Origin: Phallusia mammillata
Lineage: Eukaryota
Direction of reading: 5' to 3'
Assembly (NCBI GenBank): GCA_965637545.1
Contig: OZ281496.1
Span: 8,494,001-8,558,000, forward strand
Length of the DNA: 64,000 nucleotides
Positions 1 through 33,000 of the stretch are shown here, in pieces. The position numbers were made by a program. Each line of letters begins with the position of its first letter. The first letter of the stretch is position 1.

Positions 1-3000
1 TGATAAGCTTTATACAGCCCAGACACAAGTCTTGCAAACTGTTTTCGTTTTAAGATTGTAGTTGGATAGTTTACCAAAAAACGTTACTGCCGTTTTCCAA
101 TAAATTCCAAAAACGATCAAATACAAACACAAAACTGCATAAAGTTAAGTGTTGCCAATTTTGTTTTTTATAAAGCTTGTTTAGTGTAGGTTTTTTATGC
201 GTTTAGAGAAATATCGTTTTTAATAGAGTTGTTTGTGTTACCTATCGGAACTTAGCTAAATGTTGGGCTGCCATGACGTGTAGTTTCAATAGAGTTTTTA
301 TATATTATAAGTGTTGATTTTGTTGTAACTTATACTATGTTTTATTCTGTTCGCCACAAACTTGCTTTGAGTAAAGACTAAATCAAACGACACTGACGAA
401 ACTGAGACATAGTTTCACTTCTCGTTTTACAATTTATCAAGCCCGTTTGTAAATGAGCATCGAGGACGCTCTTCGCTTGCTTCTATGTTAATATAAAGTG
501 GAATATAAAGCTCATTAACTGTTTTAACTTCGGGCTTGCACAGGTTTAAACGTTAGGTCGAACGAATTCTGGACAAGAAACAAATATTTTTATCAGTGTA
601 ATGGGTTTTTCGGGTCCACTTGGGTTCGTACCGTCTTCGAGCTTTATTTGTTTTCGACAAACGGGCTTGATTCGGGCCTGACGTCAAATTCTCTGTCAGC
701 AATTTTTCAATGAAATGAGTTGCAAACAACTGTGCTTGAACAAAACGAATTTCTCGACTTGGCGCCTGTGTGCAAGGCATGCAAGGGAAGGAAACAATCG
801 CACGGCCAATTGATTTTCATTAGCGAGTGCGTACTGGGCACAAACCAAATGTAAAGTCATTTGACCTAATTCTTCCAGTTTGCTCGTTTATCGTTGGGTG
901 CGGCCAAGCTTCATTAAAGCCAAACATTTTAAAGCAGTTATTTCAAAGCAACTAACGTATTGTGCTGAGTTGTGTTGAATCTATTTAGCTTTCTGAAAGA
1001 GCATATAGCGACACAATGACATTAAACAATCACTAGGCCGACAATAGCTGCACAATGTTGAAATGTAAATGACACAATAGGTAGATATGGCTACGCGCGC
1101 TGCAGCTAAGTCTGCACTGTATCGTAAAGATTTAGGTAGTGGCAGCTTATAAGGGAGTGATCTTTGCGCATTATTTGATTTCTTGTTTGTCAGGGTTTGT
1201 TTGCAACTAAAGGAGATAAATTTGGTAAGATTTCGTGAGTAATACGTAAGTATTTGCATTACAATTGTAATGTACAGCTTGTTAAAGGGACCACAACAGG
1301 TTTTGTTTTGAATTCAATAGGCGTAGTTTTGTTTGTGTTTTACCTCACAGTTTGTGGTTAACTTAAAAAACAAGCCCTCATTCTAAGGACTTGAAGTGGT
1401 CAAAACCTATATATTGTAAAAAAAAGAAGCAACACAAACAAGTGAAGTTGTTTAAACAACTATTGAAACGAGAAAAAGTAATATTTTGGTATTGACGAAG
1501 ATAAAATGGACACTTGTGTGAAAACTGCAACCAAAGAATTTAAATGCAATTTGTGTAAAAAATCATTTACGCGGAAGTATACTCTGAAACAACATGTTGC
1601 TACACACAGTGGAGAAAAACGCTATCAATGTGAGGTATGTCAGAAAAAAGTTTTCACTAAAGCACTTTTGAAAGCACACATTCTGACACACTCCGAAAGA
1701 AAAAGACCGTATAAGTGTGAAATTTGTGAAAAAGGTTTTCTCTCAGCTTCTGAATTGAAAAGACACGAGGTATCTCACACTGGCGTTAAACCATACAGTT
1801 GCGACATTTGCGAAAAGAAGTTTCAAACTTCAGGACATGTAAAGCAACATATGAGATGCCATTTAGAGGAACGACCATACAAGTGTCAGCACTGCGAAAA
1901 AAGTTACACCCAATCTTCCCACCTTTCAAGACACATGCTTCATCACACCAAGGAACAACGACACAAGTGTAGAGTGTGATGTATGTATTTACCGCTAGAT
2001 GTCGTCCCTGAGTTATGACGTCACGTTTCGTATATAACCGTGTACCGCGTCTTAAACGTGGCAGTCAATACAGGTAACCGCTTAAAGGTGTGTGCGTTCA
2101 TGACATGGTGTCAGAAGTGGTTTTATAAAATGGAAGGTTCGTTCTCACTGCCTGAAGCTATGCAATGGAGTGGCAATGTGTCACAAAACTGGGTTAAGTT
2201 TATCAGGGGATTTAGGCTTTATTTGACAGCTGTTGGTTATGACGGAAAGGCTGCAAAAGTTAAAACATCTATGTTGCTCCACGTGTTGGGAGAGCAAGGT
2301 CAAACCATCCACTCAACATTTAAATTTGAAGAAGGACAAGAAATGCACTTTGAAACTGTGGTCAATGCCTTCGAAAGCTACTGTTGTCCGAGGAAGAATA
2401 TCACCAGCGAGCGATACAGGTTTTTTTCTAGCAATCAAAATGATGGTGAAAGAATAGATGTTTTTATAACCGATTTAAAAAAAACTGTCTAAAAGCTGTG
2501 ATTTCGGTGAACTTTGCGACTCATTAATCCGAGACAAAATTATTATTGGTATCAAGTGTGTTCAACTTCGTCAAAGTTTGCTGCGGGAAGAGGAACTAAC
2601 GCTTGAAAAAGCTATTAAAATGTGCATAACAAACGAAACAGTAAGATCGCAAATGACAATGTTTCGATCAACAAATTCTACAAGTTGTAGCTTGGATGCT
2701 GTTCAACGCGAACCACGTGGTAATCAATTACCAGCGCCTCGAGTTTGCAGATTCTGTGCCTTGCGACATGACGTCAGAGCGTGTCCTGCCTGGGGAAGGC
2801 GATGCTTGAAGTGTGGTGGAAGAAACCACTTCGCTCGATGTTGCAGTGCAGCTAATCACCCGCAAGCGCAACGCGCGGATACAATTCAGACGTACAACAT
2901 GCAATCTGTAAGTACTACTAGTTCACCAAAAGATTGGCTTGTTGACATTTTTGTGCTTTCATGTACACTTCGTTTTAAGATAGACACGGGAGCCCAAGTA

Positions 3001-30000: not shown

Positions 30001-33000
30001 ATTTAATGAAAGGTAGGTTTTAGAAGTTTTTTTTCAAAAAAATAACTTTTAAATAGGTGCTTGGGCTCTTTGCGCCACCTAGAAAAATTTAGTTAAAAGC
30101 GCTGCTGACGTGAGTTATGGTGACAGGAGATTGTCCATTTCAAAAAAGTGCAATGTCGTGCTGCTTTAATAACTATCTCTGCTTTTTGCGCCACCCATTG
30201 GCAAAATGGTCTGAAGTTAGTATTTCCGACACATTTTTCGAGTATATACGGGAATGCTTACAAACGGGCTTGATTCGGTACAGCGCCTTCAAAACGATAC
30301 CTTCAGCACAAAAAAGATTTTTGACTTTCAGCAGCCATCTTGGATGCGGATTTTAATACCACGCAACTTCAACCTGTACTGATATAGAAACGTATGAATC
30401 AAGTTGTCAGTAGAGATGCCTTAAATCAAGACATACTAAATTTTAACAATACAACCGTTAAACGTTAGTCGAACCGAACATCAACAATATCCGGATGTTT
30501 GTGCAATTAATTTATTTTTAACAAGACTTCATATACAATGTGAGAAGCAGATACCGAAAATGCTCATAGACTTCGATAATTAATAGATCGTTTCAAGAAA
30601 AAGACTATGCAACAGAAAACTAGGGTGCATGAAATATGCGAACAATTAGTTTCGAACCAATAATCGTGTTATGAAACAAACAATTCAGTGTTCGATATCA
30701 ACCGTTTCACGCCTTGTCAAAAGTGACAGTGGATACTTCAATATATCGTTCCAAGTTTCAAATGTTAAAACAAGAGCTAATAGGTTACAAGCAATTGCTG
30801 CTGCAAATAGCTGTACCTCAAGATACAAGTTAGCAAACATTGATACAATATCGGTTGAAATGCAAAGAAGTGACATAAAAGCCGTTCGTTTCATTATTTG
30901 TAACCCGGCAATAATATTTACTCCTTGCTCAGCGCATTTAAATCGATCGAGGAAAAGAAATAAAAGCAAGCACTGTCCTGCTATATCAATGTTTTTTCTG
31001 ACAAAGGCCACTTAACATTGCCTTCAAAATGTGTACACCCAAACCCATTGATATCTTTGTGTAATATAGTATGCTAATGCATGCAGTAAATGTTCCAAAA
31101 TTCAGGCAGACAATGCTCGACCAACTTAGGACTTTAATCCGAAATGCAAAATCATCAAGCCAATAGAGACCTTGTGAGTCGAAACATTGTACAAAGAAGT
31201 GACATAAAAGCGGTTCGTTTCATCATTTGTAACCCGGCAATAATGTTTACTCCTTGCTGGGCGCATTTAAATAGATAGAGGAAAAGAAAAAAAAGTATGC
31301 ACTGGCCTGCAAAATCAATTGCAATTCCTGCTAACAACGGCCACGGTACAATTCCACCAACAAAAGTACATCCATATCCCAATAACTGAAATCTTTGAGT
31401 AATGGAGTATCCAATGCAAGAAGTAAATACGCTCAAACACAGAAAGGCAATGCTCGACTAACTTAGTACTTTAATCCAAGCTTTGTAAATGTGATTCACA
31501 TGAGAACTTTTACAGAAACAGCGTAGTTTAAACCACAGAAATGTGTAAAGTGTGAATGCACTAAAACCTAATACCATGGGCATGATTCTTGTTAGGATTT
31601 GACATGTAAATGAAGATTGTGGTTTGTAACCCACAATGATACAGATATGTCAAGCACAGTCAGGGGTGGATCTAGAAAAAATTTAAGGGGGCTGTCCAAC
31701 AATTATTTGGAAAATTTCCTAGTGCAACACTGATGTTATACAATATTATTTGGGTATTCCCCTTTCTAAAAAACGTCATAAGCTTGACGTCACTTACGCA
31801 CCAAAAAATCTACGGTTGCAAGGTATCATTTTGAAAATACGCAGTGCTCAATGCAAAACAGAAATTTGGGGTTGGAAAAAACTGTTTTACTATCATGGAC
31901 GCACAAAGCTTGTGATGTTGCATTGTTTATAATGACGCATTAAGCGGCAGTGTGCTTTGTCCAGAATTGCAAGCAGGCCCAAACCCGAAAGTACAAGACC
32001 TCAACCTAAATGCTTTCGTATTGTCAGCGCAATAAACTCTTTATTTTAACCCTTACGTCACAATAGTCTAATAGATAAGCCAATACAAAACGATGAAGGC
32101 ACATAGCTTTGAGACAACGACTCCCTGTAATCACGCAACGGTAAACGGAACGTTTGGCCTATTTAATCTACGCACAACTTTTTCAAAATTAGAGTCGTGG
32201 AAATTTTACCAATTTTCTGAGGGGGGTGTCCAAACACCCCCGTCTAGATCCGCCCATGAGCACAGTGTATATGTTTACTAAGATAGACGCCACACTTGTC
32301 AACAAATACATAATCCGTGTATTCCTATCTCCACTTTTGTACTTGTTGTTTGAGAAACCACAGGCAAATATTGCAATAGTCAAGTGAATAGTAAAGCATA
32401 GTGCAGTTGTATCTATCGTCAGCCAAGCAATTCTTTGAGAAGAAAACTTCGCGGCGCCCGTGCTTCTTTCTTTAATGTCCGTGAGCTTGGAAGTGTTTGA
32501 TTCAGTTTCAGCAAATTCCAAAACCTATACTACGGTTCTAAAACAAAATAAGACTTAATATTCTGTCCTAAAAGTCACAACCTTCTATATAATGAACAGA
32601 AAAAAAATGAATTGATCAGTCCGCCAACTTGTGCCACAAACTGTTTTGCGCTCCATAATGTCAAAAACGTGCGCATCCATTTTCGGATTGGTGATTTATC
32701 AGTGCTATAGTGACGCAATATGTGATTTTTTGAAGCGAAATAAACTTAATTCAACTCAACTATTTAGAAAACATCGAAAGGTGCCTAAAAAGGTATGATG
32801 TCTTTACGGTTTATTGATGCCAAACCAAGCCTGGTTTCTGCACAAACTAGTGACGTTGGAAAAAATGAAACCTCTGTTATGGGCATCACAGCATATACAA
32901 AAAGCCACACTTCCTTCTTCAAACAATAAACGTCAGAAAACTTCTCCTCATTGTGAAGTGGATCGCTCTGACAAATCAAACGAAACAACAACGCACATAG

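What the first reader, a model, noticed from the sequence alone, without database searches (positions are those of the whole stretch)
1..32600. A ZnF + 7TM two-family cassette duplicated in tandem at least three times
Units A (1-~12.5 kb), B (14762-~22 kb) and C (~27.2-32.6 kb) share the same order: conserved flank, 11-finger ZnF (+), conserved spacer blocks, then 7TM genes (-). Pieces of the same flanks recur at ~52420-52700 and ~59560-59830 beside other 7TM copies. The amplified unit is therefore a putative transcription factor plus a receptor. Co-regulation is an inference; simple hitchhiking is equally possible.
Basis: partly seen in the sequence, partly recalled or inferred. Interest (0 to 1): 0.65.

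Follow-up and report, generated by a model that had tools for sequence, protein, structure and literature searches.

The report
Duplicated zinc-finger plus orphan receptor block
A sea-squirt-type genome region carries a fast-evolving tandem array of an uncharacterised GPCR-like receptor family, and a zinc-finger gene was copied three times along with it, most likely as a passenger rather than a partner.

Summary
Three collinear units (A 1-12762, B 14762-22258, C 27183-32981) share the order flank, 11-finger C2H2 gene (+), spacer blocks, two 7TM slots (-). Chains cover 6.1, 4.3 and 3.7 kb; 5 surrogate windows gave 0 matches.

The window is tunicate-like, not human. All 8 named clusters of 30 looked up are ascidian.

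The 7TM genes are single-exon, about 295 aa, with no Pfam family. The AlphaFold model is confident (pLDDT 89) and its listed PDB matches are all GPCRs. There are 12 copies or fragments, 4 intact.

Only 1 of 3 ZnF copies is intact. A is split by an LTR element with identical LTRs; C has two 1-bp insertions. No unit keeps both an intact ZnF and an intact 7TM. Five of 12 7TM copies have no ZnF beside them. The genes converge, so they share no promoter. The youngest A/B tract (92-98% identity) covers the ZnF but not the 7TMs.

Best reading: block duplication by unequal crossing-over in a birth-and-death receptor array, with the ZnF as passenger.

More interesting is the 7TM family itself, a candidate for the unidentified tunicate chemoreceptors.

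The parts
1..12762 (+). Unit A of the cassette. Its left edge is cut by the window start.
   Evidence: Collinear chains to B (8 blocks) and C (11 blocks); HSPs.
1506..1974 (+). ZnF-A, 5' half (ATG to the insertion site)
   Evidence: tblastn to ZnF-B residues 1-165, 95.8% identity; ATG position taken by homology with B.
1975..5540 (+). Ty3/gypsy-type LTR retroelement inserted in ZnF-A. The LTRs are 1975-2105 and 5410-5540. A 5-bp target duplication TAGAG lies at 1970-1974 and 5541-5545.
   Evidence: 137-nt direct repeat at 99%. Reading the two printed copies, both mismatches lie in the last 6 bases, so the 131-nt LTRs are identical, start TG and end CA. Pfam finds RVT_1, RNase H and integrase.
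5546..6062 (+). ZnF-A, 3' half, with a one-codon deletion in finger 10
   Evidence: tblastn to ZnF-B residues 168-337, 95.9%; deletion seen.
9215..10102 (-). TM1: intact 295-aa single-exon 7TM gene (proximal slot of unit A)
   Evidence: ORF; AlphaFold2 model pLDDT 89.2; PDB matches are GPCRs.
10103..10450 (-). Conserved 7TM upstream module, about 130-350 nt. It is shared by TM1, TM2, TM3, TM5, TM8 and TM11, and in part by TM12 and TM9.
   Evidence: Alignment A3; HSPs 9992-10350 vs 55248-54880 at 90% and others.
11561..12448 (-). TM2: intact 295-aa 7TM gene (distal slot of unit A)
14044..14430 (+). TM3: 5' fragment of a 7TM gene (residues 1-130), between units A and B
   Evidence: tblastn.
14762..22258 (+). 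Unit B of the cassette
16280..17269 (+). ZnF-B: the only intact ZnF copy. 329 aa, 11 C2H2 units, no other domain. An in-frame TAA lies 27 nt upstream of the ATG.
19603..19864 (-). TM4: frameshifted 7TM fragment (residues 152-241), proximal slot of unit B
21037..21921 (-). TM5: full-length 7TM pseudogene with 2 in-frame stops, distal slot of unit B
   Evidence: 90% nt identity to TM2; clade (TM2,TM5) supported 99/98.
27183..32981 (+). Unit C of the cassette
28095..29089 (+). ZnF-C: pseudogene with two separate 1-bp insertions (near 28509 and 28864) and no in-frame stop inside the three pieces
30688..31138 (-). TM6: 3' part of a 7TM gene (residues 143-295, frameshifted), proximal slot of unit C
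   Evidence: groups with TM4 at 86/90.
31191..32503 (-). TM7 plus TM8: one 7TM pseudogene. Residues 90-237 lie at 31191-31634 and residues 2-83 at 32258-32503. About 620 nt of foreign sequence separates them, and the 3' end is missing. Distal slot of unit C.
50832..51719 (+). TM9: intact 7TM gene with no ZnF beside it
52427..52673 (+). Copy of the post-ZnF spacer block, lying beside TM10 without a ZnF
   Evidence: 72-73% identity to 17703-17891 and 29155-29410.
52733..53505 (-). TM10: truncated, frameshifted 7TM pseudogene (residues 1-256)
55142..55228 (+). TM11: 29-codon 5' remnant of a 7TM gene together with its upstream module
59555..59790 (+). Copy of a piece of the pre-ZnF flank, 290-525 nt upstream of TM12
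   Evidence: 81% identity to 224-461 and 14984-15221.
60081..60962 (+). TM12: intact 7TM gene (293 aa) with no ZnF beside it

Best explanation
This is a transposon-rich stretch of a tunicate (ascidian-type) genome. It holds a birth-and-death tandem array of a lineage-specific, single-exon, GPCR-fold 7TM family.

An ancestral block of about 8-11 kb was copied as a whole to give three units. The block held one effector-less 11-finger C2H2 gene followed, tail to tail, by two 7TM genes. The copying mechanism was most likely unequal crossing-over between neighbouring 7TM paralogues (inferred).

The copies then decayed independently:
- An LTR retroelement landed very recently in ZnF-A.
- ZnF-C picked up two 1-bp insertions.
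- Eight of the twelve 7TM copies became fragments or pseudogenes.

A later event re-homogenised or re-copied only the ZnF part of A and B, at least 3.4 kb. This was either gene conversion or a second, shorter duplication.

The ZnF gene is a passenger of the receptor array, not a demonstrable partner. ZnF-B may still be a working DNA-binding protein acting anywhere in the genome.

Shown: the blocks, their order, their state of decay, the graded identities, and the fold and taxonomic range of the 7TM family. Inferred: the recombination mechanism, the passenger status, and receptor function.
For: Block duplication:
- Collinear chains run through ZnF, spacers and both 7TM slots in all three pairs of units. 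Surrogate windows gave 0 matches.
- Non-coding spacer blocks are about equally diverged in A-B, A-C and B-C, at 69-79%.

Partial tree concordance:
- The distal 7TMs of A and B pair at 99/98, mirroring ZnF (A,B).
- The proximal 7TMs of B and C pair at 86/90.
- These four cassette-linked copies form one clade at 94/96.

A second, ZnF-only layer:
- A/B identity is 95.8% in 1467 nt of flank, 98.0 and 98.6% in the two CDS halves, and 91.6% in 873 nt downstream.
- After A 7003 / B 18161 it drops to 72-79% in spacers and 83.7% over TM2/TM5.
- ZnF A-B dS is 0.071; TM2-TM5 dS is 0.148.

Decay:
- LTR element with identical 131-nt LTRs and a 5-bp target duplication.
- Two 1-bp insertions in ZnF-C.
- Two stops in TM5 and seven 7TM fragments.

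Passenger status:
- No unit has both genes intact.
- 5 of 12 7TM copies lack a ZnF.
- The orientation is convergent.

The 7TM family:
- A profile of the 4 intact copies finds 511 representatives at E<=1e-3, 130 at <=1e-10 and 3 at <=1e-30.
- 8 of 30 clusters looked up carry names, and all 8 are ascidian: Phallusia mammillata, Ciona intestinalis x3, Clavelina lepadiformis x2, Styela clava x2.
- The window copies form one clade (support 100) on a long stem.
- Pairwise dN/dS is 0.37-0.65 over 10 pairs.
Against: - The trees are only partly concordant. TM1 (proximal slot of A) groups with TM9 (83/98), not with TM4/TM6. TM7/TM8 (distal slot of C) fall with TM3, TM10 and TM12. Either exchange among 7TM paralogues blurred the history, or the slots were refilled independently.
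- ZnF A-B dN/dS is 0.32, from about 18 non-synonymous and 13 synonymous changes. So the ZnF has been under purifying selection and is not junk.
- Differences between ZnF-C and ZnF-B are enriched at the four canonical base-contact positions: 16/44 against 51/289, Fisher p 0.0076. That is what a functionally diversifying DNA-binding family would show, and it leaves a regulatory role open.
- A trans-acting ZnF-B could regulate intact 7TMs in other units. The 'no intact pair' argument only excludes an obligate cis pairing.
- With three units in one window, linkage cannot be tested statistically.
Confidence: 0.7

Rival explanations
1. The ZnF and the 7TM genes form a functional module. The ZnF is a cluster-resident transcription factor that controls or chooses among the neighbouring receptor genes, and selection keeps the two together when the array expands.
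For: - The same order recurs in three units.
- The ZnF is under purifying selection between A and B (dN/dS 0.32).
- Substitutions between C and B are enriched at base-contact positions (p 0.0076).
- 7TM copies share a conserved upstream module that could be a target.
- Pieces of the ZnF flanks lie beside TM10 and TM12.
Against: - No unit has both genes intact.
- Two of the four intact 7TMs (TM9, TM12) have no ZnF nearby.
- The genes are convergent and share no promoter.
- The most recent event copied or converted the ZnF without the 7TMs.
- The conserved upstream module is no better conserved than expected for young paralogues. This was not tested formally.
- The ZnF has no close relative that could be checked for the same linkage; the best hit is 45% identical and generic.
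Confidence: 0.1
2. Units A and B are not true paralogues. They are two divergent haplotypes of one locus placed side by side by the assembler, which is a known risk in highly heterozygous tunicate genomes.
For: The A/B tract over flank and ZnF is 92-98% identical and differs by a very young LTR insertion, as alleles might. That tunicates are highly heterozygous is recalled, not taken from a call.
Against: - Identity falls to 72-84% beyond A 7003 / B 18161.
- The units differ in structure. TM1 is intact where TM4 is a 262-nt fragment, and TM2-TM5 dS is 0.148. Alleles would be uniformly similar.
- There are no N gaps in the window.
- Unit C at 69-85% cannot be an allele.
Confidence: 0.03
3. The cassette was spread by a mobile element that captured the ZnF and 7TM genes, rather than by unequal crossing-over.
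For: The region is dense in mobile elements: two hAT copies, a Harbinger-type DDE, a Penelope-type GIY-YIG, BEL/Pao, two LTR-type elements and a palindromic MITE-like repeat. A hAT copy lies between units B and C.
Against: - The units are head-to-tail, adjacent and in one orientation, as tandem duplication gives.
- No terminal repeats or target duplications bound the units (none seen; not searched for exhaustively).
- The hAT and LTR insertions are each present in one unit or spacer only, so they came after the duplication.
Confidence: 0.05

Closest known systems
Vertebrate chemosensory GPCR arrays (odorant receptors, TAARs, V1Rs) evolving by birth and death. The comparison rests on established knowledge, recalled, plus passages of PMC2443715 on pseudogenes in the OR family.
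   Same: - Single-exon genes of about 300 aa with a seven-helix GPCR fold.
- Dense tandem array with many pseudogenes: 8 of 12 copies.
- Lineage-specific clade.
- Moderate dN/dS of 0.37-0.65.
- More variable columns in the outer half of the bundle: 73/128 against 54/137, p 0.0047.
   Different: - No detectable sequence membership. No window copy matches Pfam 7tm_1 or 7tm_4, and 1 of 41 family members scanned has a sub-threshold 7tm_1 match.
- A family profile finds no solved GPCR by sequence.
- By reading the alignment, there is no NPxxY in helix 7 and no CWxP in helix 6.
- The family is known only from tunicates among named hits.
- No expression or ligand data exist.
Nematode serpentine receptor (Sr) superfamilies
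   Same: Lineage-restricted, highly expanded 7TM families in tandem arrays. One of the three nearest ESM-Atlas clusters (score 0.94, chordate) bears the automatic name 'Serpentine receptor class gamma'.
   Different: - No Pfam 7TM_GPCR_Sr* match on any window copy.
- One relative (P0024) has a sub-threshold Srd match: E 0.003, 17.3 bits against a cut-off of 22.8.
- The Atlas name is automatic and comes without a common Pfam family.
Ciona 'Other/Unclassified Rhodopsin' GPCRs of Kamesh et al. 2008 (PMC2396169; passages read)
   Same: That paper lists 23 'Other Rhodopsins' and further unclassified GPCRs judged ascidian-specific or fast-evolving. It also reports no homologues of vertebrate, insect or nematode chemoreceptors in Ciona. 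Ciona relatives of the present family exist: XP_078491754.1, XP_026690330.1 and XP_002128857.4.
   Different: Whether any of those 23 belongs to this family could not be checked. The NCBI names of the Ciona relatives are all 'uncharacterized protein'.
Mammalian clusters where poly-zinc-finger genes and chemoreceptor genes are interspersed in duplication-prone regions, for example on human chromosome 19.
   Same: Two fast-evolving multigene families, C2H2 poly-ZnF and 7TM receptors, amplified side by side by local duplication.
   Different: The ZnF here has no KRAB, SCAN or BTB domain. The organism is a tunicate. Here the two genes sit in one repeated unit rather than in neighbouring sub-clusters.

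Membership tests
Rhodopsin-like (class A) GPCR, Pfam PF00001 7tm_1 | Significant sequence match to the family model | tested here: not met
   0 of 4 intact window copies match at E<=0.01. Of the 41 members of alignment A2, 1 matches, below the cut-off: P0023, E 3.5e-4, 20.6 bits against 30.5. Two Clavelina relatives carry the UniRef name 'G-protein coupled receptors family 1 profile domain-containing protein'. That is a source's label, not a test done here.
Rhodopsin-like (class A) GPCR | Seven-helix bundle of GPCR topology | tested here: met
   The AlphaFold2 model was built on 41 sequences: pLDDT 89.2, pTM 0.87, seven long helices, a short C-terminal helix, and a beta-hairpin between helices 4 and 5. 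Every listed Foldseek PDB match is a GPCR of class A or class C. The scores are modest: TM 0.35-0.58, best E 4.8e-4, and only 2 matches at E<=0.001.
Rhodopsin-like (class A) GPCR | Conserved Cys pair linking the top of helix 3 to extracellular loop 2 | tested here: met
   C178 is invariant and C100 is at least 90% conserved in 41 sequences. C100 lies at the start of helix 97-130 and C178 in the hairpin 170-182 of the model. The disulfide itself is inferred.
Rhodopsin-like (class A) GPCR | E/DRY at the end of helix 3, CWxP in helix 6, NPxxY in helix 7 (motif definitions recalled) | tested here: not met
   The end of helix 3 reads W-x-x-Q-R-x-x-Y, with W123, Q126 and Y130 invariant and R in the consensus. 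This resembles DRY only in the Arg. Helix 6 has C-[IV]-S-[TD]-D and helix 7 has N-x-x-x-N...S/T-F-E-x-W, so there is no CWxP and no NPxxY. P210 in helix 5 and W148 in helix 4 are conserved.
Rhodopsin-like (class A) GPCR | Signals through heterotrimeric G proteins on ligand binding | not testable with these tools
   Needs expression and signalling assays.
Vertebrate odorant receptors (Pfam 7tm_4) and nematode Sr families | Significant match to the family models | tested here: not met
   No such family was reported for any window copy or for 36 relatives, apart from one sub-threshold Srd match on P0024.
Krueppel-type C2H2 poly-zinc-finger protein | Tandem C-X2-C-X12-H-X3-5-H units joined by short conserved linkers | tested here: met
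   Pfam zf-C2H2 E 2.9e-45 and zf-H2C2_2 E 1.6e-61 with 10 stretches. 11 C-X2-C-X12-H units, 10 of them with the canonical second His.
KRAB/SCAN/BTB zinc-finger repressors | N-terminal effector domain | tested here: not met
   Only zinc-finger models match ZnF-B. The ATG lies 13 codons before finger 1, with an in-frame stop 27 nt upstream. An unseen upstream exon cannot be excluded without RNA data.
Tandem segmental duplication / birth-and-death multigene array | Head-to-tail collinear copies, graded divergence, and a mix of intact genes and pseudogenes | tested here: met
Ty3/gypsy LTR retrotransposon (the insert in ZnF-A) | Direct LTRs starting TG and ending CA, a target-site duplication, and the pol order RT, RNase H, integrase | tested here: met
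   131-nt identical LTRs and a 5-bp duplication TAGAG. Pfam finds RVT_1, RT_RNaseH, Integrase_H2C2 and rve in that order. The RVT_1 match starts at profile position 61 of 205, so the element seems internally shortened.

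The most novel reading that the evidence does not exclude
The orphan 7TM family in this array is the chemosensory receptor repertoire of tunicates, or part of it. Those receptors have not been identified. Features that point this way:
- GPCR fold, single exon, about 295 aa.
- Among named hits, found only in ascidians of several orders.
- Hundreds of 50%-identity clusters.
- Local tandem arrays with two thirds pseudogenes.
- Paralogue variation concentrated in the outer, ligand-facing half.

A bolder add-on is that the embedded ZnF, which diversifies at its base-contact residues, is a cluster-resident regulator co-amplified with its targets. 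I put that at about 0.05.
Probability: 0.25. Interest if true: 0.8.

Novelty: new member of a known kind. Interest (0 to 1): 0.4.

Why it matters
The cassette itself is an ordinary product of local duplication. It gives no evidence for a new regulatory principle.

The 7TM family is worth more. Reviews and genome surveys report that tunicates lack the vertebrate, insect and nematode chemoreceptor families and that their chemoreceptors are unknown (PMC2396169 and PMC7776563, passages). A 2026 study of taurine-guided ascidian larvae still names no receptor (PMC12922724, passages).

A tunicate-wide, expanded, fast-turning-over GPCR-fold family gives concrete candidates. These can be tested by in situ or single-cell expression in papilla, trunk epidermal and siphon sensory cells, and by heterologous ligand assays.

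Tried and rejected
- Word-indexed protein search with TM1: 621 candidates, none at E<=0.001. The exhaustive profile search was needed.
- Family profile against PDB sequences: only syndecan-2 at E 0.41, which is noise.
- ESM Atlas restricted to named clusters: best score 0.85, to fungal DUF7703 and STE2. This is below the level the tool calls more than a lead, so I rejected it.
- ZnF-B homologue search, done to find orthologues or the species: 274 hits among 1626 candidates, all generic poly-ZnF proteins from many phyla, at most 45% identity. It was uninformative.
- Literature searches for a description of the family or of a ZnF-receptor cassette in tunicates. None found. Five NCBI LOC names of relatives occur in no paper of the library.
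- Search for support of the mammalian ZnF/chemoreceptor interspersion. The passages read did not address it, so it stays a recollection.
- Considered and rejected: a human or vertebrate origin (the named relatives are all ascidian), and a bacterial gene-finding view of the ORFs.
- Not tried: complex prediction, because there is no claim of protein-protein binding; and prediction of a ZnF binding motif from a recognition code, which is too unreliable to weigh.

Full report
**What the window is**

The 64-kb window has 34-44% G+C and no N. It is animal DNA and not human. The best relatives of its most repeated gene are ascidian proteins. Of 30 relative clusters looked up, 8 carry names: Phallusia mammillata, Ciona intestinalis (3), Clavelina lepadiformis (2) and Styela clava (2). 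The other 22 are unnamed environmental or read-archive proteins. I did not try to name the species or any sample.

The window is full of mobile elements: a Ty3/gypsy-type element, two hAT copies, a Harbinger-type DDE gene, a Penelope-type GIY-YIG fragment, BEL/Pao fragments and a further gag-RT element.

All coding features used here are single ORFs. The pieces of the two broken ZnF copies were handled one by one.

**Check of the observation**

Self-comparison and chaining of same-strand matches confirm three collinear units.
- A is 1-12762, B is 14762-22258, C is 27183-32981.
- A-B: 8 blocks, 6105 aligned columns.
- A-C: 11 blocks, 4333 columns.
- B-C: 8 blocks, 3721 columns.
- Five Markov surrogate windows gave no match at E<=1e-10.

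The order in each unit is: flank, ZnF gene (+), spacer blocks, a proximal 7TM slot (-), a distal 7TM slot (-). Unit A begins exactly at window base 1, so its true left edge is unseen.

With only three copies each, they could equally be dispersed repeats.

**The zinc-finger gene**

ZnF-B (16280-17269) is intact. It has 329 aa and 11 C-X2-C-X12-H units, 10 with the canonical second histidine. Only zinc-finger Pfam models match. An in-frame stop lies just upstream of the ATG.

ZnF-A is split after codon 165 of the ORF by a 3.57-kb LTR element at 1975-5540.
- The two 131-nt LTRs read identical.
- They start TG and end CA.
- They are flanked by the 5-bp duplication TAGAG.
- The insertion is therefore very young.
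- ZnF-A also lacks one codon in finger 10.

ZnF-C has two separate 1-bp insertions and no stop within its three pieces.

Between A and B, dN is 0.023 and dS is 0.071, a ratio of 0.32. Between C and B, changes are enriched at the four canonical base-contact positions: 16/44 against 51/289, p 0.0076. Between A and B they are not: 2/43 against 11/291. The definition of the contact positions is recalled.

A protein search found only generic poly-ZnF proteins, at most 45% identical. At E<=10 the only other ZnF trace in the window is a weak match at 33778-33894.

**The 7TM genes**

tblastn finds 12 loci.
- Four are intact single-exon ORFs of 293-295 aa: TM1 9215-10102(-), TM2 11561-12448(-), TM9 50832-51719(+), TM12 60081-60962(+).
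- TM5 is full length with two stops.
- Seven are fragments.

The intact copies are 70-72% identical to TM1 in protein. Over 10 pairs, dN/dS is 0.37-0.65 and dS is 0.15-0.43.

No Pfam family matches them or 36 relatives above cut-off. Of the 41 members of the family alignment, one has a sub-threshold 7tm_1 match.

A word-indexed search found nothing. An exhaustive profile search found 511 representatives at E<=1e-3, 130 at <=1e-10 and 3 at <=1e-30. The best is a Phallusia protein at 1.5e-50 and 34% identity.

An AlphaFold2 model built on 41 sequences is confident: pLDDT 89.2, pTM 0.87. It shows seven long helices, a hairpin between helices 4 and 5, and a short last helix. All listed Foldseek matches in the PDB are GPCRs of class A or C, with modest scores: TM 0.35-0.58, best E 4.8e-4. 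The family profile finds no solved structure by sequence.

Conserved residues fit a distant rhodopsin-like receptor in some respects:
- a Cys pair at the top of helix 3 and in the hairpin;
- W-x-x-Q-R-x-x-Y at the end of helix 3;
- a Trp in helix 4;
- a Pro in helix 5.

There is no NPxxY and no CWxP. So it works like, and folds like, a GPCR. Membership of Pfam 7tm_1 was tested and not met.

In a family tree the window copies form one clade (support 100) on a long stem next to the Phallusia protein. This array is therefore a local, lineage-specific expansion.

Among the four intact copies, variable columns are commoner in the outer halves of the helices and the outer loops than in the inner parts: 73/128 against 54/137, p 0.0047. 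This is a crude split. It takes the topology from the model and assumes that the N-terminus, which carries an N-L-T sequon, is outside.

**History of the units**

Non-coding spacer blocks are about equally diverged in all three pairs, at 69-79%. ZnF-C is 81-85% identical to A and B.

The 7TM tree gives the following.
- TM2 of A pairs with TM5 of B (99/98).
- TM4 of B pairs with TM6 of C (86/90).
- These four form one clade (94/96).
- TM1 groups with TM9 (83/98).
- TM7 and TM8 fall with TM3, TM10 and TM12.

So the ZnF tree ((A,B),C) is mirrored by part of the 7TM tree, not by all of it. Exchange between 7TM paralogues or refilling of slots must be assumed for the rest.

A younger layer lies on top. 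A and B are 95.8% identical in the 1467-nt flank, 98% in the ZnF coding halves and 91.6% in the next 873 nt. Beyond A 7003 / B 18161 they are only 72-84% identical. TM2-TM5 dS is twice that of the ZnF. This tract was converted or re-copied without the 7TM genes.

**Is the ZnF a partner or a passenger?**

Against an obligate pairing:
- No unit has both genes intact.
- 5 of 12 7TM copies, including two of the four intact ones, have no ZnF beside them.
- The genes converge, with 1.6-3.2 kb between their 3' ends.
- The youngest event involved the ZnF alone.

For some function of the ZnF:
- There is purifying selection between A and B.
- There is contact-residue divergence from C.

A trans-acting role of ZnF-B on the conserved 7TM upstream module is not excluded and not supported.

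Three things stayed unchecked: linkage elsewhere in the genome or in other species, expression, and binding.

**Comparison with what is known**

The array behaves like vertebrate odorant, TAAR and V1R clusters and like nematode serpentine receptor families: intronless, tandem, lineage-specific and rich in pseudogenes. It belongs to none of them by sequence.

From passages of three papers:
- Kamesh et al. 2008 report that Ciona lacks vertebrate olfactory, insect and nematode chemoreceptors and has 23 'Other Rhodopsins' judged ascidian-specific (PMC2396169). Their gene lists are supplementary files that I could not open, so overlap with this family is unknown.
- A 2026 paper on taurine-driven chemotaxis leaves the receptor open (PMC12922724).

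Seven literature searches found no description of this family or of a ZnF-receptor cassette in tunicates. That covers only the held library.

**Verdict**

The unit does carry a putative DNA-binding protein and putative receptors, but the evidence favours hitchhiking in a birth-and-death array. The cassette is ordinary. The receptor family is the part worth following up.

Noticed in passing
window 18798-19283 and 50453-50772: A palindromic MITE-like element of about 485 nt sits in the spacer of unit B. Its arms, 18798-18958 and 19283-19123, are 95.6% complementary. A copy 89-91% identical lies directly upstream of the intact gene TM9.
   Followed up: partly
window 19954-20029 (+): A tRNA-like sequence lies between TM4 and TM5 in unit B. 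Rfam tRNA scores 44.6 bits and ARAGORN calls tRNA-Ser (GGA). It could be a real tRNA gene or the head of a tRNA-derived SINE.
   Followed up: no
window 24174-26382 (+), and 23028-23405 (-): A hAT-type transposase gene (DUF4371 plus the hAT dimerisation domain) is split into two overlapping frames. It lies between units B and C. A 125-aa ORF with no family lies just before it on the other strand.
   Followed up: partly
window 42633-44517 (-): A second hAT-type transposase, with a Spin-doc-type zinc finger, DUF4371 and the hAT dimerisation domain. It too is split into two overlapping frames.
   Followed up: no
window 37019-37975 (+): A Harbinger/PIF-type DDE transposase ORF (DDE_Tnp_4, E 1.5e-33).
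   Followed up: no
window 50029-50526 (+): An ORF with a GIY-YIG nuclease domain, as in Penelope-like retroelements, just upstream of the MITE copy and TM9. The assignment to Penelope is recalled.
   Followed up: no
window 58023-59465 (+) and 61399-63767 (-): BEL/Pao-type fragments (Peptidase_A17) lie upstream of TM12. A gag (DUF7041) plus RT element lies downstream on the other strand. TM12 therefore sits between two retroelement remnants.
   Followed up: no
window 48128-48418 and 49633-49785: Orphan copies of the 7TM upstream module (70-77% identity to 10192-10453, 12550-12806, 13442-13718 and 22012-22302, and 73.5% for the 49633-49785 piece) with no 7TM coding sequence next to them. This may be the relic of a thirteenth copy.
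   Followed up: no
window 33778-33894 (-): A weak zinc-finger-like match to ZnF-B (43 aa, 44% identity, E 0.006) just beyond unit C on the opposite strand. It may be a decayed finger pair or chance.
   Followed up: no
window 35332-35510; also 33955-34312 vs 40299-40626: A 28-nt tandem repeat of 6.4 copies, and a 360-nt dispersed repeat pair at 78% identity, both in the gene-poor middle of the window.
   Followed up: no
window 10103-10240 and copies: The 7TM upstream module ends in a conserved T-rich stretch followed by TTTAG, about 40 nt before the ATG. It looks like a splice or trans-splice acceptor. That tunicates trans-splice is recalled.
   Followed up: no
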